Shown here one piece after another: positions 4,879-63,032 of a stretch of DNA of 64,000 nt (position 1 is the stretch's first letter; each line of letters opens with the position of its first letter). Under the pieces are notes generated by a model that did not search any database, had not been told where the DNA came from, and saw only the letters and a list, made by a program, of their open reading frames with translations. This DNA is from a virus. The DNA is taken from IMG/VR virus record IMGVR_UViG_3300025133_000029, positions 32,001-96,000 of that record. One strand, given 5' to 3'. A program made the translations under genes and the position numbers.

Positions 4879-4899
4879 AATCTTTAGAGTCTAAAGATT
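4879..4899. repeat. dispersed palindrome copy 1 (intergenic)
   Basis: AATCTTTAGA-G-TCTAAAGATT. Confidence 0.95.
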
Positions 4900-4958
4900 T
4901 TTCCTCATCATTGTTTTCGGATAATATATGGTTTTCTTTGCTTGTGGGGAATTGAGCC

Positions 4959-5981
4959 TTGAGAATTATTTTTTATCTGATGTTCTCTATCTTTCTCTTT
5001 GTTTCTGGAGATACTCTGGGAGTATCTAAGAAGGAAAGTAATCCTACCTCTCTTCAAAGCTTCTTCAAAAAGAGCGTAATATCAGATCGTGGACTGTTTT
5101 TATATATAGAGAGAGGTTTTCTTCGGAAGAAGAAGTTCTATATAAAGAGATACACATCAAACAGATGGAGCGCGGAGAGTAGCCACGGACGATACTGGCC
5201 TGCTTCAGTGGTAAAAATATGGGCTGCGCTGGGAGCAGTTTTGTTTGCAAATGAGCTAGGCCAGGATAGTCGTCTGGTTTTGCGTGGAAGAGATTCTCGA
5301 GGTGTTTTTTCTTCGAATGTTATCTCTCTCTGTCGTCAGACATTAATCAGAGGTGGGAACCTTTCTTATGACAGGCTTTTGCGATTTGTTTCTCCTGCGG
5401 TTCTAAACTCGGTATATCGTCTTCGGTATAAGTTGAGGCGCATGTGGGTTTCTCGATTTTTCTCTTCAAGATCTCGTCTAAATCGATTTTGGATAAAGAA
5501 TTCTCGAAAGAAGTGGAATATTCTTCTTCGAGGAAAGATTAGTATTTCTAAAAAGAATTCCATATGCCGTTCGAATTGCATTTCCTTTAGCGACGTGTCT
5601 TCCATTATGAGGAGACTTGTTTTTCACGAGCGTTTATCAAAGAGAAAGAGGTTTAGGATTTCCAGTTACGATTCTCTTCACTTGCGATTGGCTATGAATC
5701 AATCGCCGCTTCGACTTAGAAGTGTAATAAGGAAATCTTTGGGGCGGAATATTATTGTTTATGGAAAATCTGGAAATGTTTTTGGTAGGTCTCGTGTAGA
5801 AATTGCTTTAATTGAGAGGGGATTTGGTGAGTATTATTTCATTGGGGTATCAATGAAATACAGAGGGATTCATAGGAGGATGGGGCAAAAGAGTGCATAT
5901 AGGCATTTAGGGAATCAAATGGAACGCCTCATTGGAAAGGTTCTCCGATATATAAAAAGAAAGCCTGTGGATTTCAGGTAA
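4959..5981 (+). CDS. secreted serine hydrolase of the beta-lactamase/PBP fold, very basic
   Basis: Hydrophobic signal-like N-terminus; SxxK motif (YWPASVVK), KTG-like motif (GKSG), GGNLSYDRL at the SDN position. Confidence 0.6.
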   Translation: MRIIFYLMFSIFLFVSGDTLGVSKKESNPTSLQSFFKKSVISDRGLFLYIERGFLRKKKFYIKRYTSNRWSAESSHGRYWPASVVKIWAALGAVLFANELGQDSRLVLRGRDSRGVFSSNVISLCRQTLIRGGNLSYDRLLRFVSPAVLNSVYRLRYKLRRMWVSRFFSSRSRLNRFWIKNSRKKWNILLRGKISISKKNSICRSNCISFSDVSSIMRRLVFHERLSKRKRFRISSYDSLHLRLAMNQSPLRLRSVIRKSLGRNIIVYGKSGNVFGRSRVEIALIERGFGEYYFIGVSMKYRGIHRRMGQKSAYRHLGNQMERLIGKVLRYIKRKPVDFR

Positions 5982-6020
5982 ATGCTCATAGTTGTGTTTA
6001 GTTAGAAGATATTTCTTTTT

Positions 6021-6899
6021 ATGCGAATAGAAAAAAACAAGGGAGTGATAGTAATGAATTCAAAGAATAACCTTTTGTATTATCTTGTAGATTGGAGTGG
6101 TGTTCCTTCTTATGTGCAGGGTTTAGCGGGAGATTTTTCCCAGGTTCGTGATATCAATCCAAATTGCGATTTGCATGTTGGATGCAGAGAAGATGAAGAG
6201 GGTTGGTTTATTCTGCAGGTTCCTTGTCCAACAGGAAGCTCTTATAGGATTCTGTGGTCGCAAAAAGATGAGTTGATTTCAAAGAGCGGACACAGGACTT
6301 TGAATCTTCATGTGATGGATAAAGCAAAGCGTTCGATCACTGCACTATTGGAGTGTAATGAAAAACTAAAGTTGTTTGTTCAAGATGATGACAAAGAAAG
6401 GATTGAAGAGTTTTCTGCAATCCTGCGCGGCGCACAAGGAACATGGGAAAGCTTAGAAGACAGCTTCCGATCTCATCTCGAGGATACCGCTCGTTTTGTG
6501 GGGACTTCGATGGGAGATAAGATGAGATATGAAGGATCTGGTGGTGGGGGAGATTATCTTTTACGATTGGTGGGTGAAATCTTTTTGGCGATTTGCGAGG
6601 ACGCAGAACTCTGCAAAGAAGGATTTTTGGATATACTGGGAAGTGTTTCGCCAGAGAAGGAAACGCCAAGTATTTTTTCTCCCTTGGTTCGTCTTTTGTA
6701 TTTGTTAACATCATGGAATGGGAATCTTGAAAAAGAGGAAGAAGATCTGCCTTCGGCAGGGGATGTCGTTTCTGATATAGACTTATCAAGGATCCGCCGA
6801 CAAAATCGGATTATTCGCAATATCTTCTTGGCCTCCGATGATGGGGTGGATTTAGATGAATCCAGACCTACTCTGAAGGAGGTGCCACCAACTTTGTAA
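6021..6899 (+). CDS. hypothetical protein
   Basis: 292-aa ORF; start may be ATG at 6054. Confidence 0.6.
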   Translation: MRIEKNKGVIVMNSKNNLLYYLVDWSGVPSYVQGLAGDFSQVRDINPNCDLHVGCREDEEGWFILQVPCPTGSSYRILWSQKDELISKSGHRTLNLHVMDKAKRSITALLECNEKLKLFVQDDDKERIEEFSAILRGAQGTWESLEDSFRSHLEDTARFVGTSMGDKMRYEGSGGGGDYLLRLVGEIFLAICEDAELCKEGFLDILGSVSPEKETPSIFSPLVRLLYLLTSWNGNLEKEEEDLPSAGDVVSDIDLSRIRRQNRIIRNIFLASDDGVDLDESRPTLKEVPPTL

Positions 6900-6915
6900 A
6901 AACTAGGGGTGAGGT

Positions 6916-8919: not shown

Positions 8920-10107
8920 ATGAAAATTACAAGAAATAAGGTGGAGTTGAGTCTACCAAGACTTACATCTTTGGGTGAAGAGTTTGACCTTCCCGAAAGT
9001 CATTTCACACCAGGAACAATTGGACGCGTTTCTCAAATAAAGGGTCAGTCTGCGGGAAAAACGCATGTTATTCTTGATATAGTTGGTGGCAGAGCATTGT
9101 CATCACCAAGAGTGCAGGGTTCTGGAAATAATCAATATGAACAGGAAAGAGATAGACGTCCTCCGCAGATTGATATTTCAAGAATGCCAAATATGACTCC
9201 TCGTGATCGCTTTATGAATGGGACACAGAGGTTGGAAGGGGATGGTGGGACTCCTGTTTTTGCGTCTGGTGATCCTAGACCAAGAACAGGCCCTAACAAT
9301 CAAATTGTACAAAACTCTCCAGGAACGATAGACAAGTCGCTGGCGAATCCACTGGCGCAAGAGTTAGTGGCTGGGATGTTGGGTGGAGGTATGCAAGGGC
9401 AAGCAGTACCAGTCTCTCAAGAAGAGGCAGAGGCGAGAGGTTTGGTTGGGGGGGAGGAGGTTTCTCAACCAACTATTTCACACGACAATGCTAAACAAAG
9501 ATCCCAGGAGCAGAACGAAGCGTGGGCAGCGTCTGAATTTGGTATACAGGTAACTCGAGAACAAAAAAGCACTAGAACAAGGGGTGGGAGAAGAAAAAGT
9601 AGGTACTCTTCTAACTTTGTGGTTGGTGACGATGGTGATTACTTAAGACACCCAGATGGTTCGGTCATTAGACAGGAACAAGACGGGATTAGGGCATTGT
9701 CGAACTCTGGGGTTGGAGGGATACGTCCTCCACAGGCTAAAGAAGTTCAGGAACAATTTGTGCAGCAGGACATTCAACGTAGGAAGGCAAGTAAAAGTGA
9801 GGATGGGGCGCAGGTAAAATTTGAAGAGATGCCCGAGATGGACTTACTTGATGATCCTGAAGCATTGGAGAATTTGTTGTCGACTAATCCGGCAGGAGGA
9901 ACTTTGATTCCGGGTGTTCAGGGTGGGTCTGGCATTATAACAACAGGCAATGCTCATGTAGAGAGATCGCCTGTCAGTAATGTTCAAAGACAAACTCCCT
10001 ATCCTATTCCTCCTCATATGCAAAATGTTCCCCCTCCTTCACAACAGTTCTCTGGAATGATCCCGTTAGTCCCTGCTAATCCAGACAATAATGGAATGAA
10101 TAAATAA
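8920..10107 (+). CDS. low-complexity Gln/Gly/Pro-rich hypothetical protein
   Basis: 395-aa ORF; stop overlaps the next start (TAATG). Confidence 0.65.
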   Translation: MKITRNKVELSLPRLTSLGEEFDLPESHFTPGTIGRVSQIKGQSAGKTHVILDIVGGRALSSPRVQGSGNNQYEQERDRRPPQIDISRMPNMTPRDRFMNGTQRLEGDGGTPVFASGDPRPRTGPNNQIVQNSPGTIDKSLANPLAQELVAGMLGGGMQGQAVPVSQEEAEARGLVGGEEVSQPTISHDNAKQRSQEQNEAWAASEFGIQVTREQKSTRTRGGRRKSRYSSNFVVGDDGDYLRHPDGSVIRQEQDGIRALSNSGVGGIRPPQAKEVQEQFVQQDIQRRKASKSEDGAQVKFEEMPEMDLLDDPEALENLLSTNPAGGTLIPGVQGGSGIITTGNAHVERSPVSNVQRQTPYPIPPHMQNVPPPSQQFSGMIPLVPANPDNNGMNK

Positions 10108-10772
10108 TGTTTACTCATGTTTTCTTTGAGCCTCCTGTAGCTTGGGGACGTCCGCAATACAACAGAAGTTTGGGTATTTTTTATCCCCATAAGCCGTCTC
10201 AGAAGTTTGGTGAGCGTTTAGCAGAAGATGTTCTTTCATCTTTTGATCCTTCAGAGATAGAGCTTCCTCATTTTGAAGCAGGGAGACCTTTGGGAATAGA
10301 TTTGGATTTTGTATTGCCTCGTCCAAAGTCACTTAGGAGAAAAAAAGACCAGGGTGGTTTAATTTGGTTTGGGAAATCCAAGAAAAATGACTTGGACAAC
10401 TTAATTAAAGCTGTGTGGGATGGCTTGTCTAAGGTTATGTGGGATGACGATGGCAGGTTGGTGCAGAGTCGTTCTCGTAAGTTTTATGCAGAGAAGTGGG
10501 GTGCCCCTCGAATTTGTATGCGTGTGTACTACATGAGAGAGGAGCCGGTATTCTTGTGTACTGATTATGGTTTCTCTGAAGGATCCTGGGATGAATCTTT
10601 AGACTCTAAAGATTTTCTAATGATTGATGAGCCTTGCGAACAAGGTAAAGAGAGTTTAGTATTATCTAGAAATGAGGATGGCCATCTAGTTATGCCTCCA
10701 AGAGATTCTAGAGAATATGATGAGCTTCTTTGGTCTTTTATGAGATCGAGGTCGGGAACATTAAATGATTAG
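10107..10772 (+). CDS. rusA: RusA-family Holliday junction resolvase
   Basis: PRPKS...KNDLDNLIKAVWDGL...WDDD catalytic motifs. Confidence 0.85.
   Translation: MFTHVFFEPPVAWGRPQYNRSLGIFYPHKPSQKFGERLAEDVLSSFDPSEIELPHFEAGRPLGIDLDFVLPRPKSLRRKKDQGGLIWFGKSKKNDLDNLIKAVWDGLSKVMWDDDGRLVQSRSRKFYAEKWGAPRICMRVYYMREEPVFLCTDYGFSEGSWDESLDSKDFLMIDEPCEQGKESLVLSRNEDGHLVMPPRDSREYDELLWSFMRSRSGTLND
10594..10614. repeat. dispersed palindrome copy 2 (in rusA, encodes SLDSKD)
   Basis: AATCTTTAGA-C-TCTAAAGATT. Confidence 0.95.
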
Positions 10773-12708: not shown

Positions 12709-12729
12709 AATCTTTAGACTCTAAAGATT
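12709..12729. repeat. dispersed palindrome copy 3 (after terL)
   Basis: AATCTTTAGA-C-TCTAAAGATT. Confidence 0.95.
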
Positions 12730-13038: not shown

Positions 13039-13040
13039 GC

Positions 13041-13322: not shown

Positions 13323-13661
13323 GTGCCGATTGATATAAAAACACCATTTTGTTCTTATTGGGTTGATGTGGATCCATCGAGATGTCCCGATGGTCCGGTT
13401 GAGAGAGAGATATATCCAGAAGACCTGATGCTGTTTATTATGAATGGATATTCTCCAGATGAGATTGCAGAGAGTTTATTTGCTCCAATCGATGCGATAG
13501 AGCATGCAATCATGCTCATCCCAAAAATGATGGCATGGCGTCGAGATCATTTGGCTAAAGAGTCTGCGGATTTTGATGCCAAACGTTTACCCAGTCTTTC
13601 TGAGGAGTATAGGGTGCCACATGCGAGAGATAATGTTTTGGTAAACGAAAAAATAGATTAG
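13323..13661 (+). CDS. hypothetical protein, possible HTH
   Basis: GYSPDEIAESL resembles a helix-turn-helix. Confidence 0.5.
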   Translation: MPIDIKTPFCSYWVDVDPSRCPDGPVEREIYPEDLMLFIMNGYSPDEIAESLFAPIDAIEHAIMLIPKMMAWRRDHLAKESADFDAKRLPSLSEEYRVPHARDNVLVNEKID

Positions 13662-13694: not shown

Positions 13695-14327
13695 ATGGCA
13701 AAGAAAATAAAACGTATTGCACTTATAGGTAATAGCATTCTTGAGGAGGAGGATTGGCAGGCATCTTTGGTTAGTCAGGTAGGGGATTTATTTTCAAAGT
13801 TTTGTGATTCTGAAAATATGGCTCTTGATTTCCCTTGTAGTGTTTCGCCTGCATACGTTCCATTTTTTCCGCGCGGAATTGCTTATGTTGATCATATCAA
13901 AAGAGGGCAGGAGCTTGTTATTGCATCGGCATCTGATGTTACGGTTGTTCTCAACTTAGGTCATTCCTTTGATGGTGGAGGTCCAGAAGATCATCATTTG
14001 GAGGCTTTAATTCAAGCTTCGAATCTTTTGATAATATGGACCCCTACATCAGTGCACGTTGATGAGGTTTTACCGAATGATGTGGTGGGGAAAAATGCGG
14101 GGGTAATACCAGTAAGTGGCTCTGTTGGGGTTCTTGCGGCGGTTGTGTTGTATATTTGCTTAGAAAATGATTGGTCACTACAATTGAATACGCCAATCTC
14201 ATTGGCCTTGGGTGAATTTAATGACGATTCTGATTCTTTAGATTCTAAAGAAGAGGTTGAATTAGAAATAGAAGTTGAAATTATTGAAAAGTTAAAAGTT
14301 CCCGAGCCTGAAAAGGGTCTTCAGTAG
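13695..14327 (+). CDS. hypothetical protein
   Basis: 210-aa ORF. Confidence 0.6.
   Translation: MAKKIKRIALIGNSILEEEDWQASLVSQVGDLFSKFCDSENMALDFPCSVSPAYVPFFPRGIAYVDHIKRGQELVIASASDVTVVLNLGHSFDGGGPEDHHLEALIQASNLLIIWTPTSVHVDEVLPNDVVGKNAGVIPVSGSVGVLAAVVLYICLENDWSLQLNTPISLALGEFNDDSDSLDSKEEVELEIEVEIIEKLKVPEPEKGLQ
14234..14252. repeat. dispersed palindrome copy 4 (in CDS, encodes SLDSKE)
   Basis: TTCTTTAGA-T-TCTAAAGAA. Confidence 0.85.
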
Positions 14328-16642: not shown

Positions 16643-16891
16643 TTGGCTTTCTTGAACACAACAATGGTCGTCATGTGTCAGTGTCCTTATAGATATGGGG
16701 AAGCTGACTTGTATAAGACGATGGTGGTCTTAGAAGACAAGAGAGCTTGGTTTGAGTTAGGGGATCGAGCTTATATGATAATACTTGAGTTGCATGCACA
16801 TGTGATAAGGATGAGATGGTCGATGCCAGAAGGTTTCGACACATTAGTTCGCGGGATAGCAGACGAGGGGTTTTGGGGAATAAAATCGTAA
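16643..16891 (+). CDS. hypothetical protein
   Basis: Short ORF filling the gap; start uncertain. Confidence 0.35.
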   Translation: MAFLNTTMVVMCQCPYRYGEADLYKTMVVLEDKRAWFELGDRAYMIILELHAHVIRMRWSMPEGFDTLVRGIADEGFWGIKS

Positions 16892-16911
16892 AACTTTAGA
16901 CTCTAAAGTTT
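16891..16911. repeat. dispersed palindrome copy 5
   Basis: AAACTTTAGA-C-TCTAAAGTTT. Confidence 0.9.
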
Positions 16912-17051: not shown

Positions 17052-17436
17052 TGTGTCCGAGAAAAAAACGGATAAGTCTATACATCTTGTTCCGGTGCCC
17101 GAGTCATTGGGGGGCGATGAGGAAGAGAATCAAAGGATAAAGAGGCGGCTTGGACTTGGAATTGATAATTATGCAACTCGTGAAGAAGCTCGATCTATCT
17201 TCCAGTTTAGGAAATTTTCTGCGCCTGTTCCCATAATCAAGGATGGTGAGGTTATTGGGATATACTTGCATAAAGGAAAGCGTCGTCGCTTTAGAGATAG
17301 GTATTGTGATCTTTGCAATAAACAACTGGAAACAAGTCCAAAGATAACAGACCATAGTGATCCTTCGATGCCTTTATATTTTTGTTCTGAAGAGTGTGCG
17401 GATTCCTGGAGATTGGACGAGGAGATTGGAATATAA
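17052..17436 (+). CDS. TRASH/YHS-like Zn-binding protein
   Basis: CDLC...YFCSEEC; GTG start with GGAG upstream. Confidence 0.5.
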
Positions 17437-19055
17437 TGTCAAAAAGTGTTTGGTTCGTTCGTCGTTGTCGGGGTGAGAGGGCGGGGCTTTGTCCTTCGCG
17501 GTTTATTAAGGGTCGGCATATAATTGCTTCTGATGGGATGGAGGCAATAAAGTTGTATCTATTTCACTATAATGGTTGGGTAGAGAGTTCACTTGGTGCA
17601 GTAGAGCATTCTCATGTTTTTGAAAACTATACATCGGGAATTCGTTGGGACATTAAGGTTTACTCAGAGGGTCTGAAAAGAGAACCCCTCCTCCTCCTGG
17701 CGCAGTGTATGTTTTCTTTTGATGGGAAAAAGAAAGAGAGAGTTTTTCTGTGGCCGAGTGATGATAGTGCCGATATGGCAACGACTCCTGGGCTACATGT
17801 TTCCTTTCCTTCTATTTCTTCAGATATTGAAGAGATGGTTGCTTCGCTAGGAGTTGGATTTTATTCTGGTAAGGTTTATTCAGAAAATCCGATGTCGTAT
17901 AAGCACGATGTTGTTTTGGCGGAAAGTGAAGTCGGCGTTGCGAAATTGCTATACGTAGATGCTACAGAAGTTCAAGATTTGGATCCGAGTTTGCTTGAGG
18001 AGCGATCGGGAGAGTACTCGAGTAGGGGATCTGTTTTGCAGATAGATGTTTTTCCCCATCAAAATGTTTATACTTTTGCGCAAGTTTCTGCAGATCAACA
18101 TTCTCTTCGGAGTTCAGTGTTTGAGGATCTGGGGGTTCCCCCGCTGGGGAGTGCGGCGTTTACGGAGGGTGTTGCAGAGGGGATGTATCCAAAGCAGCCT
18201 CTTTACTCTGGGGAGAGTATGCTAATCAAACGATCGGATGAGGTTCCAACAGAGCATCGTGTCTGGCGTTTTGGTGATAAGGATCGAGATAAGGAGATAT
18301 TTACAAGAGGAGGTTTGCGGGTTGTCGATGTCAGTGTCGGGGAGAAGCCTTGCTATCTATGGAAGGTTGTCCTAGATGTGTTGTGGGCAGGGGAGAAGAA
18401 GTCATACGCGGCAGTACTACTTGCGGGGAGTGGTGAAGATGCAGTTGTTTCTTATTTTACTCACTTCTTTAAACATCTCCCCTTTCGCTCGGAAACTCCT
18501 TTTGTTTTAGAGGATTTGGTTACATCGCAAGTATTATGTCTTAATCGATCGAATAGTTCTTTCTGCATCGAAGCATCGAGAATTACTCATGGAAAGGGTG
18601 AGTGGGGTGAGGCGCCTGCAGACTTTGCTTGTGAGGGGGAGAGTGGGATTTCTTTGCTAGAAGAGGCAAGGGATCGACAGGATGGTGGAGACATGGGTCT
18701 GTATATTACCGTTTTGTATACCACGACCAATAGGAGAAAGGGCTACATCCGAAGTTATGCAAAGTCACCCATACAGGCGGCAGCGTTATCGTTGGTTCAT
18801 TGGACAGCAGTCCTCCCCAAGATTGGTGACGGAGCTTTGTATAACATGGGCGATCTGCAGACATCTTTACATGGGAAGGATTGCGACATCGTTCCTGCTG
18901 GGAAGATGTATGATGTGTTGGCAGAGTACACTGGCCTGCCAACACGACATGATTGCATTGAGTGTGAAGGAGATATCTTGGCAGGGCGGGTAGGGGAGCC
19001 GGAGAAGGATGGGGAAGAGTCTGTGGAATCTGTGAAAAATGGAGAAAATCTTTAG
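17436..19055 (+). CDS. hypothetical protein with repeated small modules
   Basis: TAATG coupling to the previous gene; stop codon lies inside a palindrome copy. Confidence 0.65.
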   Translation: MSKSVWFVRRCRGERAGLCPSRFIKGRHIIASDGMEAIKLYLFHYNGWVESSLGAVEHSHVFENYTSGIRWDIKVYSEGLKREPLLLLAQCMFSFDGKKKERVFLWPSDDSADMATTPGLHVSFPSISSDIEEMVASLGVGFYSGKVYSENPMSYKHDVVLAESEVGVAKLLYVDATEVQDLDPSLLEERSGEYSSRGSVLQIDVFPHQNVYTFAQVSADQHSLRSSVFEDLGVPPLGSAAFTEGVAEGMYPKQPLYSGESMLIKRSDEVPTEHRVWRFGDKDRDKEIFTRGGLRVVDVSVGEKPCYLWKVVLDVLWAGEKKSYAAVLLAGSGEDAVVSYFTHFFKHLPFRSETPFVLEDLVTSQVLCLNRSNSSFCIEASRITHGKGEWGEAPADFACEGESGISLLEEARDRQDGGDMGLYITVLYTTTNRRKGYIRSYAKSPIQAAALSLVHWTAVLPKIGDGALYNMGDLQTSLHGKDCDIVPAGKMYDVLAEYTGLPTRHDCIECEGDILAGRVGEPEKDGEESVESVKNGENL

Positions 19056-19067
19056 ACTCTAAAGATC
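19047..19067. repeat. dispersed palindrome copy 6 (supplies both stops of convergent genes)
   Basis: AATCTTTAGA-C-TCTAAAGATC. Confidence 0.95.
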
Positions 19068-22309: not shown

Positions 22310-22330
22310 AATCTTTAGACTCTAAAGATT
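22310..22330. repeat. dispersed palindrome copy 7
   Basis: AATCTTTAGA-C-TCTAAAGATT. Confidence 0.95.
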
Positions 22331-26811: not shown

Positions 26812-27660
26812 ATGTCTGAAACAAAAAATATCCTATCTCCACCTATGGATGATGCGGAAATCGCATCTCTTTCTCATGTTGAAGTGGAGGATACAATTCA
26901 ATTGCCAAAAACCCACGAGGGTTGGCTTAAGCGGTTTTTAGCTTATTTGAACATATTTGGATTCCTTAGAGTTTTCTTTGGTCAAACTCGAGATTCTACA
27001 AATCGACCCAATAATATTCTCATGTTGTTTTATGCAGCATGTCTTATACATGCGTCTGTTTTGGTTGGATCTGTGTACTTTAAGGGGGCAAGATATCATT
27101 TGGTCTTAGATTGTCCACCGGGGACAAAGCAAAACTACATAGGCAAGAAGATTTTAAAGAAATCTTTAGAGTCTAAAGAAAAGTCTTCCAAAAAGGGGTT
27201 GCGGGGAAAGATAAAAAGGGGGGCTAAGAGTTTAGCTAAGAGAATAAAAAATAGGTTGTCGAGGAAGAGGGTTCGTCGAACTTTTAATAATCCATCACCC
27301 ACCGCAGTTTCAAAAAAAGAAAAAATCATATGCGGTGGTTTAAAGATTACAATACATTTGACTTTGCAGCCGTCGCCTTCTTTGCCTGGGGCGGTGTACT
27401 GGACGTGTTTTTGGGCATTAGTTTTTATAGGAATGTTGTATATGGGAAGGCATCAGCAGACTCGGGATTGGTCTGTTGATCTAATGTATGCGTGGAAGGG
27501 AGGAAGTAGAAGAGATGGTTTGGATTCGAGAACTGCATCTATTTCTGTTTCTGGAGAAGGAGTGAGTTTTGATACAGGAGATGCAGGGGGTACAGTGACT
27601 GCCCCTCCAAGTGTAGATCCTCGGGGAACTATGGGAGATAAGAAAGGACATAGTCACTGA
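26812..27660 (+). CDS. membrane protein with a basic loop
   Basis: Two to three hydrophobic segments flanking a K/R-rich region. Confidence 0.6.
   Translation: MSETKNILSPPMDDAEIASLSHVEVEDTIQLPKTHEGWLKRFLAYLNIFGFLRVFFGQTRDSTNRPNNILMLFYAACLIHASVLVGSVYFKGARYHLVLDCPPGTKQNYIGKKILKKSLESKEKSSKKGLRGKIKRGAKSLAKRIKNRLSRKRVRRTFNNPSPTAVSKKEKIICGGLKITIHLTLQPSPSLPGAVYWTCFWALVFIGMLYMGRHQQTRDWSVDLMYAWKGGSRRDGLDSRTASISVSGEGVSFDTGDAGGTVTAPPSVDPRGTMGDKKGHSH
27161..27181. repeat. dispersed palindrome copy 8 (in CDS, encodes SLESKE)
   Basis: AATCTTTAGA-G-TCTAAAGAAA. Confidence 0.9.
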
Positions 27661-29332: not shown

Positions 29333-29353
29333 AATCTTTAGAGTCTAAAGATT
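29333..29353. repeat. dispersed palindrome copy 9
   Basis: AATCTTTAGA-G-TCTAAAGATT. Confidence 0.95.
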
Positions 29354-34810: not shown

Positions 34811-34856
34811 AAAAAAAAGGGAAATCTTTAGAATCTAAAGATTTCCCTTTTTTTTT
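34811..34856. terminator. long hairpin (22-bp arms) flanked by A8/T9, possibly a bidirectional terminator, centred on a palindrome copy
   Basis: AAAAAAAAGGGAAATCTTTAGA-A-TCTAAAGATTTCCCTTTTTTTT. Confidence 0.6.
34823..34843. repeat. dispersed palindrome copy 10
   Basis: AATCTTTAGA-A-TCTAAAGATT. Confidence 0.95.
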
Positions 34857-36706: not shown

Positions 36707-36727
36707 AATCTTTAGACTCTAAAGATT
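36707..36727. repeat. dispersed palindrome copy 11
   Basis: AATCTTTAGA-C-TCTAAAGATT. Confidence 0.95.
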
Positions 36728-39467: not shown

Positions 39468-39531
39468 CGGGTAAGTCTTTTACTTTAGAGATGTAAAATC
39501 TTTAGAGTCTAAAGATTTGCCCGTTTTTTTT
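39468..39531 (+). terminator. terminator-like hairpin overlapping a palindrome copy
   Basis: CGGGTAAGTCTTT pairs with AAAGATTTGCCCG (two G-U pairs), followed by T8. Confidence 0.5.
39497..39517. repeat. dispersed palindrome copy 12
   Basis: AATCTTTAGA-G-TCTAAAGATT. Confidence 0.95.
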
Positions 39532-44272: not shown

Positions 44273-44293
44273 TTTCTTTAGACTCTAAAGATT
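44273..44293. repeat. dispersed palindrome copy 13
   Basis: TTTCTTTAGA-C-TCTAAAGATT. Confidence 0.9.
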
Positions 44294-46460: not shown

Positions 46461-46481
46461 GATCTTTAGAATCTAAAGATC
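46461..46481. repeat. dispersed palindrome copy 14
   Basis: GATCTTTAGA-A-TCTAAAGATC. Confidence 0.9.
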
Positions 46482-49006: not shown

Positions 49007-49027
49007 AATCTTTAGAGTCTAAAGATT
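49007..49027. repeat. dispersed palindrome copy 15
   Basis: AATCTTTAGA-G-TCTAAAGATT. Confidence 0.95.
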
Positions 49028-51738: not shown

Positions 51739-53157
51739 CTAGTTTTTTTGTGTTTTTGGCACCGGGACAATTGGAATGGACTCTGCTTTAGAATCTTTAG
51801 AGTCTAAAGATTCTTCTTCCAGAATCTTTCCTTGCTCGTCGAATTCTATATCGACGGGTGTTATATCGGATAATTCTCCAGATATGAGGTGTGGCTCAAT
51901 TCCAACTCGTTTCATTCTGTCGAGAATAATGGCTCCATATCCAGGATCAAGCTCTATCCCATATCCTCGGCGACCCGTGCTTTCTGCGGCGATAAGAGAA
52001 GTGCCGCTTCCCAAGAAAGCATCGTATACAGAATCTCCGGGGTTTGTGTGGTTTTCTATAGGTCGGCGCATGCATTCTATTGGTTTTTGTGTTCCATGAC
52101 CTGTTTGTTCGTCGAGTTCGTCATTTCCTCCTCCAAAGGCAGCCAGATTTCTTATTTCCCAAACATTTGATTGTTTTCTTCCTCCCTGCCAATTTGCGCT
52201 CTTTCCCTTTCTTACTGCATACCAAGCCATCTCATATTGTTGGTGGTAGTGACTTCTTGAGAATGCAAAGTGTTGCTTTTTCCAAACAACCATTGTTCTT
52301 GGTATAAAGTTGCAGTCTCGCAGTCCATCCATAATAACATCGGTAAATATGGCGGCGTGCCATACATAGGCAACATCTCCGGGAAAGAGTTTATATGCAT
52401 CTCGCCAGTCTGCTATGTGGTCATTAGCGACTTTTCCAGTAGATCGAACATTTCCTCGCATTGTGTCAGCTTCATTTCTCCATCCCGGATCATAGTTCAC
52501 TCCGTAGGGAGGGTCGGTAACCATAAGGAGTGGAACTTCACCACCAAAGAGAGTACTTACGGCTTGAGGATCTGTTGAAGATCCGATCATGAGTCTATGG
52601 TCACCGCATTGCCAGAGTTGTCCTAGTTGAGTTTTCCATTCGCGTTGCATGTCCTCTCTGGGGTCAAAGTCTTGTCTGTTTTCTTCATCACGGACATTGT
52701 TTTTCTTTTGATCGATTTTGACGCCTTGAAGGATTTCTCGGAGGTCTTCGGTTTTGAAACCTGTTCCTCTTAGTTTTATTGCGCTTTGTTTTACGTTCTC
52801 GAGTATTTCTGAAAGTATTTTATTGTCGTACGTTGCGATGTCAGATGTGCGGTTATCGGCGAGGAGTATTCGGAGAGCTTGGTCATCATCTACGTCTATA
52901 AATATAACGGGGACTTTAGTTTCTCCTTCTTCCAGGAGAGCTTTGTATCTGTGGTTTCCAACAAGGATGAAATTTGTTGTTTTTTGAACAATCAATACGC
53001 CATAGAAACCATTAACTTGAAGGCTTTCGCGTATGAGGTCGATGTTTCCTTTTCTTGGGTTTCTTGGGTGAGTAAACACTGAATCAATGGGAACTTCTTC
53101 AATAGAAGATCCATCATTCAGGAAGTGTATTTTTTGTTCTTGCTTGATTTCTTCCAT
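51739..53157 (-). CDS. ParB/Srx-domain fused DNA methyltransferase (N4/N6 family)
   Basis: HPRNPRKG...GNHR ParB-like N-terminus; TDPPYG, HGTQKP, YDAFLGSGT, GIELDP. Confidence 0.9.
   Translation of the reverse strand: MEEIKQEQKIHFLNDGSSIEEVPIDSVFTHPRNPRKGNIDLIRESLQVNGFYGVLIVQKTTNFILVGNHRYKALLEEGETKVPVIFIDVDDDQALRILLADNRTSDIATYDNKILSEILENVKQSAIKLRGTGFKTEDLREILQGVKIDQKKNNVRDEENRQDFDPREDMQREWKTQLGQLWQCGDHRLMIGSSTDPQAVSTLFGGEVPLLMVTDPPYGVNYDPGWRNEADTMRGNVRSTGKVANDHIADWRDAYKLFPGDVAYVWHAAIFTDVIMDGLRDCNFIPRTMVVWKKQHFAFSRSHYHQQYEMAWYAVRKGKSANWQGGRKQSNVWEIRNLAAFGGGNDELDEQTGHGTQKPIECMRRPIENHTNPGDSVYDAFLGSGTSLIAAESTGRRGYGIELDPGYGAIILDRMKRVGIEPHLISGELSDITPVDIEFDEQGKILEEESLDSKDSKAESIPIVPVPKTQKN
51792..51812. 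repeat. dispersed palindrome copy 16 (in MTase CDS, encodes SLDSKD on the - strand)
   Basis: AATCTTTAGA-G-TCTAAAGATT. Confidence 0.95.
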
Positions 53158-57212: not shown

Positions 57213-57233
57213 AATCTTTAGAATCTAAAGATC
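57213..57233. repeat. dispersed palindrome copy 17 (divergent intergenic region)
   Basis: AATCTTTAGA-A-TCTAAAGATC. Confidence 0.95.
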
Positions 57234-58919: not shown

Positions 58920-58940
58920 AATCTTTAGAGTCTAAAGATT
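58920..58940. repeat. dispersed palindrome copy 18
   Basis: AATCTTTAGA-G-TCTAAAGATT. Confidence 0.95.
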
Positions 58941-59501: not shown

Positions 59502-60212
59502 TTACTTATCTTTATCTGTGAAAGTATCTTCTGGATCAAGAGAGAATGGTCGTGTGTGTGGCATTGGCATTGGGGATTCATCATTTTCTTGATCGATGAA
59601 TCCGGGTTGTCCCTTTTGAACTGCGGGTTCTATATAGTGTATGTCTCTACCGCGCATAGCAAGAAGTTGTTCTGATTTCATCCCAACTCGTAAGGATAGA
59701 ATTTGAGTTGCGACAGCTTCCAGATTCTCTTCACTGAGTTCGGCGTGGAGGTGAGCATGTCTTACTTCACCCTCATGCTTAACCGAATGTTCGATCCGCT
59801 GTGGGGTTTGGTGGATGGCATTGCAGTCTTGGAGGATTTTTGTTTCTCTCAGACGAAGCTCCGATATGAATTTGAGACACCTGATCCGGTCACTTACCTT
59901 ATTAGCACTTTGGAAGTCTGTCCATGCCTCTTCTCTCATTTGAGCAAATTCGGATCTAATCTCTCCCAGGTATGCGTTCTGGTCTATAGATTCTACGCTT
60001 TGAGAGGCAGAGTCTCGATAAGCTTTTATGTAATTGTAAACAGTCTTTCGCGAGACATTTAGTATTTGAGCAACCTGACTAACTGTGTACCCACGAAGCC
60101 TCATTTGGTAGGCTTGCCATATCTTCTCTTTTTTAGACTCTTCGTCTGGGTTGTACTCGACAATTGTAATAGGAAGCCCATCACTTCCACGTTTAATCAT
60201 CTCGTTGCTCAT
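59502..60212 (-). CDS. HTH protein, possible terminase small subunit
   Basis: AYQMRLRGYTVSQVAQILNVSRKTVYNYI followed by helical region; GAGGA RBS. Confidence 0.5.
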   Translation of the reverse strand: MSNEMIKRGSDGLPITIVEYNPDEESKKEKIWQAYQMRLRGYTVSQVAQILNVSRKTVYNYIKAYRDSASQSVESIDQNAYLGEIRSEFAQMREEAWTDFQSANKVSDRIRCLKFISELRLRETKILQDCNAIHQTPQRIEHSVKHEGEVRHAHLHAELSEENLEAVATQILSLRVGMKSEQLLAMRGRDIHYIEPAVQKGQPGFIDQENDESPMPMPHTRPFSLDPEDTFTDKDK

Positions 60213-60302: not shown

Positions 60303-60323
60303 AATCTTTAGACTCTAAAGTTT
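60303..60323. repeat. dispersed palindrome copy 19 (upstream of parB)
   Basis: AATCTTTAGA-C-TCTAAAGTTT. Confidence 0.9.
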
Positions 60324-60531: not shown

Positions 60532-61884
60532 ATGACGGTACAGAACGAAACCGAAGAAATTGTCCAGACCAACACCGAAGAAGAAGAAGTCGAAGAGACC
60601 GGAACCAAGGCGAAGAAGAAAGGCTCTTCCAAGAAGAAGTCCGGAGCGAAGAAGAAAAAAACTGGTGGCAAAAAGAAAGCCGCTTCCTCCAAAAAGGGAG
60701 GGGGCAAGAAAAAAGCTGCGGCTAAGGCAAAAACCGTTGAGCCTGTGGTGGTTGTTCCTCCAGAAGAAGGAGCCGATGAGTCTCAGCAAGAGGGCGAAGT
60801 GATCGAGGCGGTTCGGGAGCTTGAGTCTCGAAACATGGATCCTCGGTTGATTACCTACCCGCAGCGATTCAAGAACTCTCGGATGAAGCCAGACCCTATC
60901 CACCTTCGCGATCTCAAGGCCAGCGTCAAGCGAAACGGGATCCTGACCCCTCTCATCGTCTGGGAGATTCCTGACGAATCTCAGGAGTCCGGTTTTCGCC
61001 ACGACATCATCTCGGGGTTCAGCCGCTTCAAGGTCATCAATGACTTGATCGCGGAAAATGAACTCAGCTTCTCGGAAATCCCCATCAGAATCTATCGCGG
61101 CAACATCGCGGGTGCGGCAGAGATCAACTTTGCCGAGAACCTGCAGCGCAAAGATCTCTCGCCCTTTGAAATCTGTATGTATCTTCAGTACATGCGAGAG
61201 GAAGTGGACATCAAAAGCACCGACCTCGCCTTGATCGTAGGCAAGTCTGAGGCATGGGTTTCGGTCGCTCTGAAGTTCATGGACAACGCGATCGGTGAGC
61301 TTCAGAAGGTCGTCGAAGAAGGAAAGATGTCCTACTCCTTGGCTCTCGATGTCTCTGGCTTCGAGCCGCATGTGCAAGGAAACTGGGTTGACGCCTACCG
61401 AAAGACTCTCGCCACGAGCGGAAAGAAAAGCGCGGTGCGGGAGGCCAAAAAGAAAGCAGGGAAGGCTAAGAAGAAAAAGAAAAAGCCTTCGGACGCTTAC
61501 CTTCCCCCCGAGACAGTCGTTGCCACGTTCAACTCCTATTACGATATGGAACTGGACACCTATGACGACTTGGTCAAGTCCTACCTCTTCGGCTTGATGG
61601 CAGGCATGGCCCACTGCCTGGGCTATGACGTCAACCTGACCCAAATCGAGAGACCGGACATCGGAAACATCAACGTCAAAGATCTCCCCCTCCTTCAGGC
61701 GACAGAGGACGATGGAGAGGGCGAAGGTGAAGGCGAGTCGGCAGAAAGCACCTCCGAAGGTGAGTCGGCAGAAGAGTCCACTGAGGTCGTTACCGAAGAA
61801 GAGACGACGGAAGAAGGCACCGAAGCCGAAGCCGAGTCGACAGAAGAATCTACCGAAGCCGAAGCCGAAGGCGAAGAAGAGTAG
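60532..61884 (+). CDS. parB: ParB/Spo0J-family protein with Lys-rich N-terminus and acidic C-terminal tail
   Basis: LKASVKRNGILTPLIV, IISGFSR, AENLQRKDLSPFE, HTH DLALIVGKSEAWVS; AAGGAG RBS; strong GC3 codon bias. Confidence 0.85.
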   Translation: MTVQNETEEIVQTNTEEEEVEETGTKAKKKGSSKKKSGAKKKKTGGKKKAASSKKGGGKKKAAAKAKTVEPVVVVPPEEGADESQQEGEVIEAVRELESRNMDPRLITYPQRFKNSRMKPDPIHLRDLKASVKRNGILTPLIVWEIPDESQESGFRHDIISGFSRFKVINDLIAENELSFSEIPIRIYRGNIAGAAEINFAENLQRKDLSPFEICMYLQYMREEVDIKSTDLALIVGKSEAWVSVALKFMDNAIGELQKVVEEGKMSYSLALDVSGFEPHVQGNWVDAYRKTLATSGKKSAVREAKKKAGKAKKKKKKPSDAYLPPETVVATFNSYYDMELDTYDDLVKSYLFGLMAGMAHCLGYDVNLTQIERPDIGNINVKDLPLLQATEDDGEGEGEGESAESTSEGESAEESTEVVTEEETTEEGTEAEAESTEESTEAEAEGEEE

Positions 61885-61928
61885 AATCCCGCATCGAGGT
61901 TCTTTCTTCCCCACTCACACCCCTCCTT

Positions 61929-62450
61929 CTATCCTTCCTCTTCCCGTTTTCTCGGGATATCCCCCAACCACATCTTGATCTGATATTGTGATTCGCCGAC
62001 GTGCTTTGCATCAGCCGGATTCAAGAACTCTTGTGAGAGTCGAAGTTTGTTCGGTGCCTCTTCCAGGTTGAATGCAAAGTGATAATATCTTTCACTGGAG
62101 AGTCGACCCTTGGGAAAGCCATAGGATCTTTCTAATTTTCGAATATGGTCTGGATCCAAAACACCAACAAGAGCAATGAGTCTCTCATTGCGTAGATCTA
62201 TATCAGAGATTTCATCTGCGGTAAGCTTCTCTCTGTATCCATACCAAATTGGATATTTGTTTGTCATACACTCAGCAATGCGCCACTCCTCACCGCTGAT
62301 GCTTCGTGATTCGCGCATCGCGACTTCAAGAGATTCGCGGCAAGCAGCGCTCTCAGCCACTCGAGCGCGTTGTCGTTCCTCTTGCTCTGCTCTTCTTCTT
62401 GCCTTACGCCGTTCTCTGTTTTTATTCTTCTTCTTTTTGCCTTTTCTCAT
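61929..62450 (-). CDS. basic hypothetical protein
   Basis: ORF following 62457..62972. Confidence 0.5.
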   Translation of the reverse strand: MRKGKKKKNKNRERRKARRRAEQEERQRARVAESAACRESLEVAMRESRSISGEEWRIAECMTNKYPIWYGYREKLTADEISDIDLRNERLIALVGVLDPDHIRKLERSYGFPKGRLSSERYYHFAFNLEEAPNKLRLSQEFLNPADAKHVGESQYQIKMWLGDIPRKREEEG

Positions 62451-62456
62451 TTCGCA

Positions 62457-62972
62457 TCACTCTTCTGGGTTTTCTTTTTTCGAGCTTTTCTTCTTTTTGC
62501 TTTTCTTCTTGGTAGGTGGTGTGGGGGCAGCAGGCGTTTCTTCTATTGGACTATCTTCAGATGACTCATCTGCTTTGGGAATTTCTGCTACCGAGTCGCC
62601 GGGTGAGAGTTTTTGCTTATTGGCTCGATGGAAGACTCGGACTTCTTGTGAGAGGTTCTTTACTTGCTCTTGGAGTTGGAGGATCAATTCTTTTGATGCG
62701 TCTTGCCCGTCTGTTAAGGAGGCAATTTGTCTGCTTTTCTCGGATACTGTTGCTTGGAGGTCATCTGTCTGTGAGCGCAGAGCCTTTCTCGCGAGTTTGT
62801 TGTCATAAAGAAGCCCACAGACATAGGTCCACAAACCTTTCAATCGTCGTAGCTGCTCTATTCTGTCTTCATCTTTTGTGCCGACAATATACTCTTCCAG
62901 GGCACTAAAGACTTCCTTACCTTCATCAATGTAATTAATGGGATCGTCTATCTGAAGTTCTTTGTCGGACAT
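62457..62972 (-). CDS. coiled-coil hypothetical protein
   Basis: GAGGA RBS. Confidence 0.65.
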   Translation of the reverse strand: MSDKELQIDDPINYIDEGKEVFSALEEYIVGTKDEDRIEQLRRLKGLWTYVCGLLYDNKLARKALRSQTDDLQATVSEKSRQIASLTDGQDASKELILQLQEQVKNLSQEVRVFHRANKQKLSPGDSVAEIPKADESSEDSPIEETPAAPTPPTKKKSKKKKSSKKENPEE

Positions 62973-63011
62973 CTTGTGTTATCCTCTTTTTGTTACATTT
63001 TTATGGACTAA

Positions 63012-63032
63012 AATCTTTAGAGTCTAAAGAAG
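63012..63032. repeat. dispersed palindrome copy 20 (divergent intergenic region)
   Basis: AATCTTTAGA-G-TCTAAAGAAG. Confidence 0.9.

What the first reader, a model, noticed from the sequence alone, without database searches (positions are those of the whole stretch)
4879..63032. A 21-bp palindrome (AATCTTTAGA-N-TCTAAAGATT) dispersed 20 times across the phage genome: candidate DNA-organising or partitioning site system
Seen: 20 copies starting at about 4879, 10594, 12709, 14234, 16891, 19047, 22310, 27161, 29333, 34823, 36707, 39497, 44273, 46461, 49007, 51792, 57213, 58920, 60303 and 63012. The 14 core bases CTTTAGA-N-TCTAAAG are invariant; the centre base varies (G 8, C 8, A 3, T 1). A rough chance expectation at ~40% GC is below 0.001 copies per 64 kb. 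Copies lie 1.4-5.7 kb apart (mean ~3 kb), are never clustered, and sit in co-directional, convergent and divergent junctions as well as inside four genes. Known: position-independent palindromes bound by dimeric proteins are typical of parS/ParB, Noc NBS, SlmA SBS and matS. Inference: this is a genome-wide binding site for a phage protein that compacts, segregates, protects or marks phage DNA as self, rather than an ordinary operator, promoter or terminator. I do not recognise the motif from any described system.
Basis: partly seen in the sequence, partly recalled or inferred. Interest (0 to 1): 0.92.

Follow-up and report, generated by a model that had tools for sequence, protein, structure and literature searches.

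The report
Evenly spaced palindrome lattice in phage
An uncultured marine jumbo phage repeats one exact 15-21 bp DNA palindrome about every 3 kb along its chromosome. Sister phages keep the same lattice with a different spelling, so it is most likely a set of docking sites for a phage DNA-binding protein, probably its own partner-less ParB/KorB-type clamp.

Summary
The window holds 20 exact copies of CTTTAGANTCTAAAG (0 expected). The whole 161-kb record holds 52, and a 66-kb contig that is probably the rest of the same genome type holds 16 more. There are almost no degenerate copies. Spacing is much more even than chance (CV 0.53 against about 0.98), even when only intergenic regions are allowed.

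Three sister lineages (large terminase 46-58% identical) keep the lattice with other spellings: GTTAGG-W-CCTAAC and GTTCAGT-S-ACTGAAC. Both halves have changed symmetrically.

The predicted RNA hairpins are weak (-5.8 to 0 kcal/mol), few sites have T-tracts, and the centre base ignores gene strand. Separate canonical terminators sit beside some copies. The sites are therefore not ordinary terminators or promoters.

Site positions are mostly not conserved at syntenic junctions, although density and evenness are. This points to genome-wide coverage rather than control of particular genes.

A divergent ParB family with no ParA partner occurs in all four lattice lineages and was not found in a lattice-free relative. 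The 13-bp core differs from the KorB operator of plasmid RK2 only at the two innermost positions.

The protein that reads the sites is not proven; a small acidic HTH protein fits the distribution equally well. This scan has noted similar lattices in other phages. Cluster O mycobacteriophages are the published precedent, and their repeats have no known function.

The parts
4879..4899 (.). palindrome copy 1, intergenic (17 nt after a stop, 70 nt before the next start)
10594..10614 (.). copy 2, inside the C-terminal extension of the RusA-like gene (10107-10772), read as SLDSK; a copy sits at the same gene's 3' end in relative G7
12709..12729 (.). copy 3, 16 nt after the large-terminase stop; the only position kept in all four lineages
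14233..14253 (.). copy 4 (3 flank mismatches), inside the 210-aa gene 13695-14327
16891..16911 (.). copy 5, intergenic
19047..19067 (.). copy 6, at a convergent junction; the palindrome supplies the TAG stop codons of both genes (17394-19055 + and 19059-20237 -)
22310..22330 (.). copy 7, intergenic
27161..27181 (.). copy 8, inside the 282-aa gene 26812-27660 (SLESK)
29333..29353 (.). copy 9, 43 nt upstream of a conserved 65-aa gene (a copy is also upstream of its G6 homologue)
34823..34843 (.). copy 10, embedded in a longer GC-clamped stem with T-runs on both sides (a true bidirectional terminator)
36707..36727 (.). copy 11, followed 13 bp later by a separate strong terminator (36740-36767 plus T9)
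39497..39517 (.). copy 12, intergenic
44273..44293 (.). copy 13, in a divergent 676-bp intergenic region
46461..46481 (.). copy 14, intergenic
49007..49027 (.). copy 15, intergenic
51792..51812 (.). copy 16, inside the 3' end of the ParB_N-N6_N4 methyltransferase gene; G6 has a copy at the 3' end of its methyltransferase gene
57213..57233 (.). copy 17, divergent junction
58920..58940 (.). copy 18, intergenic on the minus-strand block
60303..60323 (.). copy 19, in the divergent region between the 236-aa HTH gene and parB (about 220 nt before the parB start)
63012..63032 (.). copy 20, centre of a 100-bp divergent intergenic region
60532..61884 (+). ParB-family gene with no ParA partner (450 aa): lysine-rich N-tail, ParB N-terminal CTPase-type domain (GFSR, ENLQR), ParB-type HTH, helical domain, acidic tail. 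Leading candidate reader.
13323..13661 (+). 112-aa acidic protein with a LuxR/sigma-region-4-like HTH, conserved in all four lattice lineages. Alternative candidate reader.
59502..60212 (-). 236-aa HTH_23/Terminase_5 protein, transcribed divergently from parB; also present in the lattice-free relative G008, so a less likely reader (probably a small terminase subunit)
51739..53157 (-). ParB_N-N6_N4 DNA methyltransferase fusion. The palindrome centre GANTC is the recognition sequence of the CcrM and HinfI methyltransferases (from memory); any link is untested.

Best explanation
The palindromes are a genome-wide lattice of high-affinity docking sites on double-stranded DNA for a two-fold symmetric phage protein. 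The most likely reader is the phage's own ParB/KorB-family protein (window 60532-61884), which has no ParA partner.

Proposed mechanism, all inferred. A ParB dimer recognises the 13-bp core nTnAGn-N-nCTnAn together with its A-tract and T-tract flanks (about 21 bp in all). It closes as a nucleotide-dependent clamp and slides or spreads outward. With a loading site every 3-7 kb, neighbouring clamps could reach the whole chromosome.

The purpose would then be a property of the whole genome, such as global silencing or timing, compaction, or marking and shielding the phage DNA. It would not be control of particular genes, and it would not be ParA-driven partitioning.

Shown here: the sites exist, are invariant within a genome and are evenly spaced. 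They change symmetrically between sister phages and do not depend on orientation. They are too weak to act as hairpin terminators. A ParB-fold protein occurs in every lineage that has the lattice.

Not shown: that ParB binds the sites, that it binds CTP or slides, and what the biological effect is.
For: (1) Sequence-specific symmetric recognition rather than structure. The 14 core bases are invariant in all 52+16 copies and there are only 3 near-copies. In G7 the positions +-7 are non-complementary in 4 of 6 copies, and in G6 the arms are only 6 bp long.

(2) Co-evolution. The sister lineages use TTTAGA-N-TCTAAA (G0/G1, G7), GTTAGG-W-CCTAAC (G6, L394) and GTTCAGT-S-ACTGAAC (G9/G10). The changes are symmetric, each spelling is invariant within its genome, and neither of the two spellings cross-checked (G0 and G6) occurs in the other genome.

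(3) Evenness is seen independently in G0, G1, G6 and G9 (CV 0.46-0.53, P<=0.007 each). Positions at syntenic junctions are mostly not conserved (5 shared among 61 junctions, p=0.2). Long genes in G1 and G9 carry internal copies.

(4) The centre base read on the coding strand is G 16 and C 14.

(5) The ParB subfamily is present in all four lattice lineages: P0001 in G0; G9_40726; P0003 on L394, which carries four G6-type sites, two of them just upstream of parB; and P0007 on L397, which carries three G7-type sites, one 38 bp upstream of the operon that ends in parB. It was not found in the lattice-free relative G008, which still has the neighbouring HTH and portal genes.

(6) The AlphaFold model (pLDDT above 90 over residues 100-310, and mostly 75-93 on to about 390) matches ParB-CTP, Noc and KorB structures (Foldseek E 3e-10 to 8e-8). 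The GxRR-like (GFRR/GFSR) and ENxQR motifs are conserved.

(7) The KorB operator TTTAGCGGCTAAA is a 13-bp palindrome with a footprint over 22 bp (PMC5577506). The G0 core matches it at 10 of 12 specified positions. KorB is a CTP clamp that slides up to 1.5 kb from its operator (PMC11790492).

(8) No ParA-type ATPase was found in about 517 kb of family sequence.
Against: There is no binding evidence of any kind.

The ParB recognition helix does not co-vary simply with the three site spellings. G0 and G7-type ParB share a core site yet differ in that helix more than G0 and G6-type do.

G9 has no site near its parB.

In G0 the GxRR box reads GFSR, so CTP binding is uncertain.

Many other genes share the same distribution across lineages, including a 112-aa HTH protein whose operon follows the one positionally conserved site.

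GC-rich contigs (G011, L342, L330) carry the G9-type palindrome without this ParB.

Four more distant ParB_N relatives have no lattice in their 10-20 kb loci.

The strong intergenic preference (about 85%) is unlike parS, although stop codons in two of three frames on each strand may explain it.
Confidence: 0.45

Rival explanations
1. The sites are docking sites of this kind, but for a different phage-encoded dimeric DNA-binding protein. The candidates are the conserved 112-aa LuxR/sigma-r4-like HTH protein at window 13323-13661 or an unidentified protein. It would act as a genome-wide roadblock or insulator between cistrons, like a symmetric version of the stoperators of Cluster A mycobacteriophages.
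For: The 112-aa protein is conserved in all four lattice lineages and was not detected around the terminase gene of the lattice-free G008. The only site whose position is kept in all lineages lies just downstream of the large terminase gene and upstream of the small operon containing this gene. Its model has a three-helix unit that superposes on LuxR-type DNA-binding domains (rmsd 0.7-2 A over 33-40 residues). Sites hug stop codons and lie 19-43 nt before the next start, that is, between cistrons.
Against: The Foldseek E-values are about 1, so the match is not significant. The protein is strongly acidic in all four lineages (pI 4.4-5.0), and acidic residues occupy the usual base-contacting positions of the putative recognition helix. 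It shows no covariation with site spelling. Site orientation is random with respect to transcription, sites occur in convergent and divergent junctions, and positions turn over. These features fit coverage better than roadblocks at particular operons.
Confidence: 0.22
2. The sites are targets of a sequence-specific enzyme rather than of a structural or regulatory binder. Examples are a phage nuclease or nickase that makes ends for recombination-dependent replication, a recombinase, or a methylation-dependent self-mark centred on GANTC (G0/G7) or GGWCC (G6).
For: The all-or-none conservation, with almost no degenerate copies, resembles the specificity of an enzyme. The phage carries a T4-like recombination set: UvsX-like, a weak UvsY-like match (E 0.027, below the Pfam cut-off), SbcCD-like, RusA-like and Dda-like. 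G0, G6 and G7 encode N6_N4 methyltransferases, and a site sits at the 3' end of the methyltransferase gene in both G0 and G6. Even spacing would suit evenly distributed entry points.
Against: No methyltransferase of this family was found in G9/G10. GANTC is not depleted and occurs 794 times, so the 5-bp centre cannot explain the 13-21 bp conservation. No dedicated nuclease was identified that co-varies with the sites. Cutting a palindrome on both strands every 3 kb would fragment the genome.
Confidence: 0.1
3. The signal acts at the RNA level. The transcribed palindrome forms a short hairpin between cistrons that is recognised by a processing or stabilising factor, in the way RNase III sites work in T7 or REP elements work in bacteria.
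For: Most copies lie in transcribed intercistronic spacers directly after stop codons. A palindrome gives the same hairpin in transcripts from either strand. Symmetric changes between lineages are also what compensatory stem changes would look like.
Against: The hairpins are very weak: -5.8 kcal/mol in G0, -1.1 in G6, 0 in G7 and -4.3 in G9. In G7 pairing at +-7 is broken in 4 of 6 copies. Within a genome there is no covariation at all, only invariance. Copies also sit in the middle of divergent promoter regions and at mid-gene positions that keep the spacing even.
Confidence: 0.07
4. The sites are ordinary intrinsic terminators or promoters for the host RNA polymerase.
For: One copy (34823) is the tip of a genuine bidirectional terminator, and a few others are followed by T-runs. 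In the early-gene region outside the window some copies lie 17-38 nt from a GTAAAT promoter-like motif.
Against: Only 5 of 52 copies have 6 or more T or A in the 8-nt flank, and the mean folding energy is weak. Copy 36707 is followed immediately by a separate strong terminator. Copies occur in divergent junctions, where a terminator is not needed, and in convergent junctions, where a promoter is not needed. Some intergenic spacers are only about 41 nt long, which leaves no room for a promoter. The centre base is independent of strand.
Confidence: 0.03
5. The reader is a host-encoded protein, or the repeat is a selfish REP-like mobile palindrome.
For: Unrelated GC-rich contigs share the exact G9-type palindrome without sharing proteins. 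Site positions turn over quickly between lineages.
Against: No genome among 185,579 prokaryote species carries the 19-mer more than once. Spacing is even rather than clustered. The stems are too short for REP-type hairpins. I noticed no HUH or RAYT-type transposase, but I did not search for one systematically. The site after the terminase gene has kept its position through all changes of spelling.
Confidence: 0.05

Closest known systems
KorB and its OB operators on IncP-1 plasmid RK2 (PMC11790492, PMC5577506, PMC13768133)
   Same: Both involve a ParB-family protein and a perfect 13-bp palindrome with an unspecified G/C centre, dispersed over the replicon at kilobase intervals. The OB core TTTAGC-S-GCTAAA and the phage core TTTAGA-S-TCTAAA match at 10 of 12 specified positions, and both have A/T-rich favourable flanks. 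KorB loads at OB and slides as a CTP clamp for up to about 1.5 kb.
   Different: The phage protein is only distantly related to KorB by sequence (phmmer E 0.12 to the KorB chain, Pfam KorB domain E 0.0016). No ParA/IncC partner and no KorA-like partner were identified. There are at least 68 sites on a roughly 230-kb virus, against the dozen I recall for a 60-kb plasmid. Spacing is even and the sites are not tied to particular promoters. Binding is untested.
17-bp dyad repeats of Cluster O mycobacteriophages such as Corndog, TGTTCGG-NNN-CCGAACA (PMC4351075)
   Same: These phages carry more than 30 copies of an inverted repeat whose arms are invariant, spread through the genome, with a variable centre. 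The repeats show no orientation relative to transcription and are mostly not at promoters. The authors predict a dimeric DNA-binding protein and a role other than transcription initiation. ParB-like domain proteins are present, and the function is unknown.
   Different: The sequence and geometry differ (7-3-7 against 7-1-7), and the phages and hosts are unrelated. About one third of the Cluster O copies are intragenic and they are denser at one genome end. Changes of spelling between lineages and statistical evenness were not reported there.
Stoperators of mycobacteriophage L5 and Cluster A phages, as described in PMC4351075 and from memory
   Same: Both have dozens of copies of a 13-bp site in short intergenic spacers throughout the genome, read by one phage protein. 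From memory, the site consensus co-evolves with the repressor between phages.
   Different: Stoperators are asymmetric and oriented with transcription, and they serve prophage silencing by the immunity repressor. Here the sites are palindromic and orientation-free. I came across no integrase or repressor, but I did not search for them specifically.
Chromosome-wide sites of Noc (NBS), MatP (matS), SlmA (SBS) and ParB (parS)
   Same: These are palindromes of 12-16 bp read by dimers and used for DNA organisation rather than gene-specific control. Noc is a ParB-family member with no ParA partner, and it is the best sequence match in the PDB for the phage protein (E 6e-8).
   Different: Those sites are regional or clustered, mostly intragenic and tolerate mismatches. 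The phage lattice covers the whole genome, is evenly spaced, is nearly mismatch-free and is largely intergenic.

Membership tests
ParB/KorB-type clamp with palindromic loading sites | A protein with the ParB N-terminal (CTPase) fold | tested here: met
   Pfam ParB_N E 2.6e-4, below the cut-off. phmmer to Noc, Spo0J and ParB structures E 6e-8 to 2e-5. Foldseek to ParB-CTP, Noc and KorB structures E 3e-10 to 8e-8 with a confident model.
ParB/KorB-type clamp with palindromic loading sites | Nucleotide-binding motifs GxxRxxA (GERR) and ENxQR | tested here: inconclusive
   ENLQR is present. The subfamily consensus is GFRR, but the window's protein reads GFSR. Nucleotide binding cannot be tested here.
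ParB/KorB-type clamp with palindromic loading sites | A ParB-type HTH DNA-binding domain following the N-domain | tested here: met
   HTH_ParB 24.9 bits, over the cut-off, in the six-frame search. KorB-domain match E 0.0016. The structure matches cover the DNA-binding domain.
ParB/KorB-type clamp with palindromic loading sites | A 13-16 bp palindromic site on the same replicon | tested here: met
   The core matches KorB OB at 10 of 12 positions.
ParB/KorB-type clamp with palindromic loading sites | The protein binds, and loads at, those sites | not testable with these tools
   The only evidence is co-occurrence in 4 of 4 lattice lineages and absence from 1 lattice-free relative.
ParABS partition system | A ParA/Soj-type ATPase partner and a ParA-binding motif in ParB | tested here: not met
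   No AAA_31 match in G000, G001, G006, G009 or G010. No [LFI]G[KR]G[LFI] motif is visible in the ParB sequence (motif as defined in PMC12704722).
Intrinsic (Rho-independent) terminators | A stable GC-rich hairpin followed by a U-tract | tested here: not met
   Core hairpin energies are -5.8, -1.1, 0 and -4.3 kcal/mol. Only 5 of 52 copies have a T/A-rich flank. A separate terminator sits next to copy 36707.
Stoperators (Cluster A mycobacteriophages) | An asymmetric site oriented with the direction of transcription | tested here: not met
   The site is a perfect palindrome. The centre base on the coding strand is G 16 and C 14.
Cluster O-type dispersed dyad repeats | At least 30 invariant inverted repeats dispersed genome-wide, with a variable centre and no orientation | tested here: met
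   compared with PMC4351075. This is the same kind of feature, but it is not homologous in sequence.
REP/RAYT-type mobile palindromes | Hairpin-forming imperfect palindromes of 20-40 nt, plus a RAYT transposase | tested here: inconclusive
   The arms are only 6-7 bp in G6, G7 and G9, and the hairpins are unstable. I did not search specifically for a RAYT gene.

The most novel reading that the evidence does not exclude
A clade of apparently lytic marine jumbo phages uses a ParB/KorB-type nucleotide-gated clamp with no ParA partner, together with an evenly spaced lattice of about 70 loading sites, to coat or mark its entire chromosome. The purpose could be self-recognition, shielding from nucleases or host defences, global transcriptional timing or compaction. 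The clamp and all of its sites have switched specificity together at least twice between sister lineages. This would be a virus-wide use of ParB clamps that is neither partitioning nor local gene silencing.
Probability: 0.3. Interest if true: 0.85.

Novelty: new variant of a known kind. Interest (0 to 1): 0.68.

Why it matters
Dispersed invariant palindromes have been on record for one phage group since 2015 without a function. ParB-fold proteins with no ParA partner are now known to be widespread in phages, also without a function (PMC12704722).

This clade offers a clean, testable link between the two. It provides three natural pairs of site spelling and ParB orthologue for swap experiments. 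It shows a statistically even lattice whose positions drift while its coverage is kept. It also shows near-identity to the well-studied KorB operator.

If the link holds, it would show how a virus can address its whole chromosome with one protein. It would also give a case study of how a DNA-binding protein and dozens of its sites change specificity together. If another protein reads the sites, the lattice still defines a genome-wide signal of unknown function in large uncultured phages.

Tried and rejected
1. HU (window 14423) as reader: it has no homologue in G6, G7 or G9.

2. The 236-aa HTH_23/Terminase_5 protein as reader: it is also present in lattice-free G008 and looks like a small terminase subunit.

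3. ParB 'absent from G6'. This was an artefact of an incomplete contig. A 19-kb contig (L394) that carries G6-type sites encodes the ParB module, and its twin L395 comes from the same Ga01804xx sample series as the G6-type contigs. The G6 contig also lacks a block of more than 30 kb of large genes that is shared by G1 and G10.

4. GANTC restriction avoidance or methylation as the explanation: GANTC is not depleted (794 copies, observed/expected 1.33).

5. Linking the sites to the GTAAATGC promoter-like motif: they are adjacent only in the early region outside the window and nowhere in the window.

6. Recognition-helix covariation for ParB and for the 112-aa HTH protein: no clear pattern.

7. 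Net charge as a way to separate the candidates: both are acidic, so it is uninformative.

8. Exact-string literature searches for all three spellings: no hits.

9. Cultured relatives: none closer than 30% large-terminase identity, and no DNA match.

10. Distant ParB_N relatives in viral contigs (23-28% identity): no lattice in their loci, which is uninformative because only the N-domain matched.

11. The short contigs of ParB homologues P0004-P0006 and P0008-P0010 were either too short or had no DNA available.

12. The bacterial ParB P0002 is chromosomal and irrelevant.

13. L009 (a local cluster of direct repeats) and L257 (CTAAGA-S-TCTTAG) are not part of this family.

Full report
**Observation**

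The window holds 20 exact copies of CTTTAGANTCTAAAG, against 0 in shuffles. These are the only places within 3 mismatches of the 21-mer.

The window is bases 32001-96000 of a 161-kb viral record, G000, which holds 52 copies. Only two further places have one mismatch and one has two. Positions +-8 to +-10 are also strongly conserved (AAT...ATT), and conservation then decays into an A-tract on the left and a T-tract on the right.

The gap CV is 0.53, against about 0.98 for random placement; 0 of 20000 simulations were that low. About 85% of copies are intergenic in a genome that is 87% coding. Even when the same number of intergenic regions is drawn at random, the observed evenness is reached in 5e-5 of simulations or fewer.

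**What kind of phage this is**

There is no DNA match among cultured phages. The best cultured large terminase is only 30% identical. The record encodes:
- a large terminase;
- SbcC- and SbcD-like, RusA-like, UvsX-like and Dda-like proteins, and a weak UvsY-like match;
- a DnaB-like helicase, a primase, a DNA polymerase and an SSB;
- HU, a ParB_N-methyltransferase fusion, and a divergent ParB with an HTH.

A 66-kb contig (G001, 16 copies) and a 25-kb contig (G002, 7 copies) carry the same 21-mer but share no DNA or protein with G000. Three observations make G001 most likely the missing part of the same genome type, which gives at least 68 sites in about 227 kb:
- G001 shares about 20 large proteins with contig G010.
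- G000 shares dozens with G009, which comes from the same sample as G010.
- A contig encoding the identical ParB occurs in the sample that yielded G002.

**Sister lineages use other spellings**

Terminase-based searches recovered three related lineages.

| Lineage | Terminase identity | Site | Copies |
|---|---|---|---|
| G7/L237 | 56% | AAAS-TTTAGA-N-TCTAAA-STTT | about one per 3.5 kb |
| G6 (144 kb) | 58% | GTTAGG-W-CCTAAC | 28 invariant copies, 2 near-copies, CV 0.46 |
| G9/G10/L238 | 46% | GTTCAGT-S-ACTGAAC | 15+5 |

In G7, positions +-7 are non-complementary in 4 of 6 copies. In G6 no arm extends beyond 6-7 bp.

The skeleton shared by all lineages is nTnAGn-N-nCTnAn, flanked by A- and T-tracts. 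The G0 and G6 spellings were cross-checked and neither occurs in the other genome. Terminase relatives at 41% identity or less, including the 77.6-kb G008, have no such family.

No genome among 185,579 prokaryote species has the 19-mer more than once.

**What the sites are not**

*Hairpins and terminators.* Folding energies of the core are -5.8 (G0), -1.1 (G6), 0 (G7) and -4.3 (G9) kcal/mol. Only 5 of 52 copies have a T/A-rich flank. One copy (34823) forms the tip of a genuine bidirectional terminator. Copy 36707 is followed 13 bp later by a separate strong terminator, so the palindrome does not do that job itself.

*Oriented signals.* The centre base read on the coding strand is G 16 and C 14.

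*Promoters.* Copies occur in co-directional, convergent and divergent junctions. Some intercistronic spacers are only about 41 nt long, which leaves room for the palindrome and a ribosome-binding site only. The GTAAATGC promoter-like motif noted elsewhere in this genome lies near copies only outside the window.

*Restriction avoidance.* GANTC, the centre of the palindrome, is not depleted.

**Placement**

Sites hug stop codons and often supply the TAG or TAA themselves. They lie 19-43 nt before the next start. The motif closes two of three reading frames on each strand, and all intragenic copies use the one open frame (S-L-D/E-S-K). Coding constraint may therefore explain much of the intergenic preference.

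G9's motif closes fewer frames, and G9 has more intragenic copies, several of them in the interior of genes of 3-6 kb. G1 has one copy in the middle of an 8-kb gene.

Among 61 gene junctions that are syntenic between lineages, 17 carry a site in G0/G1 and 12 in the relative, but only 5 in both (p=0.2). The one position kept in all lineages is directly downstream of the large terminase gene.

Density and evenness, in contrast, recur in G0, G1, G6 and G9 (CV 0.46-0.53, P<=0.007 each). Maximum gaps are about half of what random placement would give. This pattern fits selection for coverage of the whole chromosome, not for control of particular genes.

**Who reads the sites**

*ParB.* The protein at window 60532-61884 matches Pfam only weakly, but the other evidence is clear:
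- phmmer links it to Noc, Spo0J and ParB structures.
- A confident AlphaFold model matches ParB-CTP, Noc and KorB structures.
- Its subfamily conserves GFRR (GFSR in this phage) and ENxQR.

It first seemed to be absent from G6. However, its closest homologue in 1.8 billion representative proteins (P0003) lies on a 19-kb contig, L394, whose twin L395 comes from the same sample series as the G6-type contigs. L394 carries four GTTAGGWCCTAAC copies, two of them just upstream of parB. The homologue P0007 lies on a contig from the G7 sample that carries three G7-type copies, one of them 38 bp upstream of the operon that ends in parB. G9 also has an orthologue.

G008 has no lattice. It keeps the neighbouring HTH and portal genes but has no detectable ParB. 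No ParA-type ATPase exists in any record.

The 13-bp KorB operator TTTAGCGGCTAAA, with a footprint over 22 bp (PMC5577506), matches the G0 core at 10 of 12 positions. KorB is a CTP clamp that slides up to 1.5 kb from its operator (PMC11790492).

*Counter-evidence.* There is no simple covariation in the recognition helix, and G9 has no site near its parB. A second protein has the same distribution across lineages. It is an acidic 112-aa protein with a LuxR/sigma-r4-like HTH (window 13323-13661), and it lies in the operon that follows the conserved post-terminase site. Its structural matches are not significant, and its putative recognition helix is acidic.

HU is not conserved in the sister lineages. 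The 236-aa HTH protein is also present in G008.

**Literature**

Exact-string searches for the three spellings found nothing. Cluster O mycobacteriophages carry more than 30 invariant 17-bp dyad repeats of unknown function (PMC4351075). A 2025 survey reports that ParB-fold proteins with no ParA partner, and ParB-methyltransferase fusions, are common in phages; it does not mention palindromes (PMC12704722).

This scan has noted comparable lattices in other phages, including one with RTTYAGYNRCTRAAY, which is the G9 spelling. I treat those notes as leads only.

**Verdict**

The best reading (0.45) is a lattice of loading sites for the phage's ParB/KorB-type clamp, which has no ParA partner, serving a function that covers the whole genome. 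The same reading with a different phage protein as reader is second (0.22). Enzyme-target, RNA-level, terminator or promoter, and host or selfish-element readings are less likely. It is a new variant of a known kind, and its function is unproven.

Noticed in passing
G011 (IMGVR_UViG_3300037193_000597), L342, L330: GC-rich (67-69%) viral contigs carry exactly the G9-type palindrome GTTCAGT-S-ACTGAAC. G011 has 38 copies in 36 kb, mostly 18-26 nt before start codons, with centre C 25, G 9 and A 4. They share no detectable protein with G9/G10, and G011 has only a 207-aa ParB_N-only protein. I could not tell whether this is convergence, a shared reader or a host factor.
   Followed up: partly
G000:102305/102362 (outside the window); L394:8451/8508: Site doublets lie exactly 57 bp apart in two different lineages; the one in L394 is just upstream of parB. 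A second G000 doublet is 107 bp apart (142162/142269).
   Followed up: no
window 19047-19067: One palindrome supplies the TAG stop codons of both genes at a convergent junction whose intergenic gap is only 3 bp.
   Followed up: partly
G000:14176-17247 and G000:29461-31539 (outside the window); G6:100312-103782: The DnaB-like helicase of G000 is 1023 aa, against about 440-470 aa in G6, G7 and G9. The UvsX-like recombinase is 692 aa and has HNH-endonuclease matches in its middle. In G6 it is the DNA polymerase that is much longer. These look like intein or homing-endonuclease insertions that differ between lineages.
   Followed up: no
window 51739-53157 (-): A ParB_N-N6_N4 DNA methyltransferase fusion. 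The palindrome centre GANTC is the recognition sequence of the CcrM and HinfI methyltransferases (from memory). G6 has GGWCC at the centre and a different N6_N4 methyltransferase that lacks ParB_N. Both genes end at a palindrome copy.
   Followed up: partly
G001:15748-23161 and homologues in G6 and G010: Three large proteins (944, 878 and 616 aa) are conserved across the clade at 35-52% identity and have no PHROG match. They are probably novel virion or core proteins.
   Followed up: partly
G000:97453 (outside the window): A one-mismatch copy (CTTTAGACGCTAAAG) lies in the largest site-free gap (95.0-102.3 kb), near the 5' end of a 4.9-kb gene. It may be a decayed or weak site that keeps the spacing.
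   Followed up: no
L257 (IMGVR_UViG_3300031853_000589): An unrelated low-GC viral contig has four copies of CTAAGA-S-TCTTAG within 2.3 kb. This is a different palindrome family that also has a GASTC centre.
   Followed up: no
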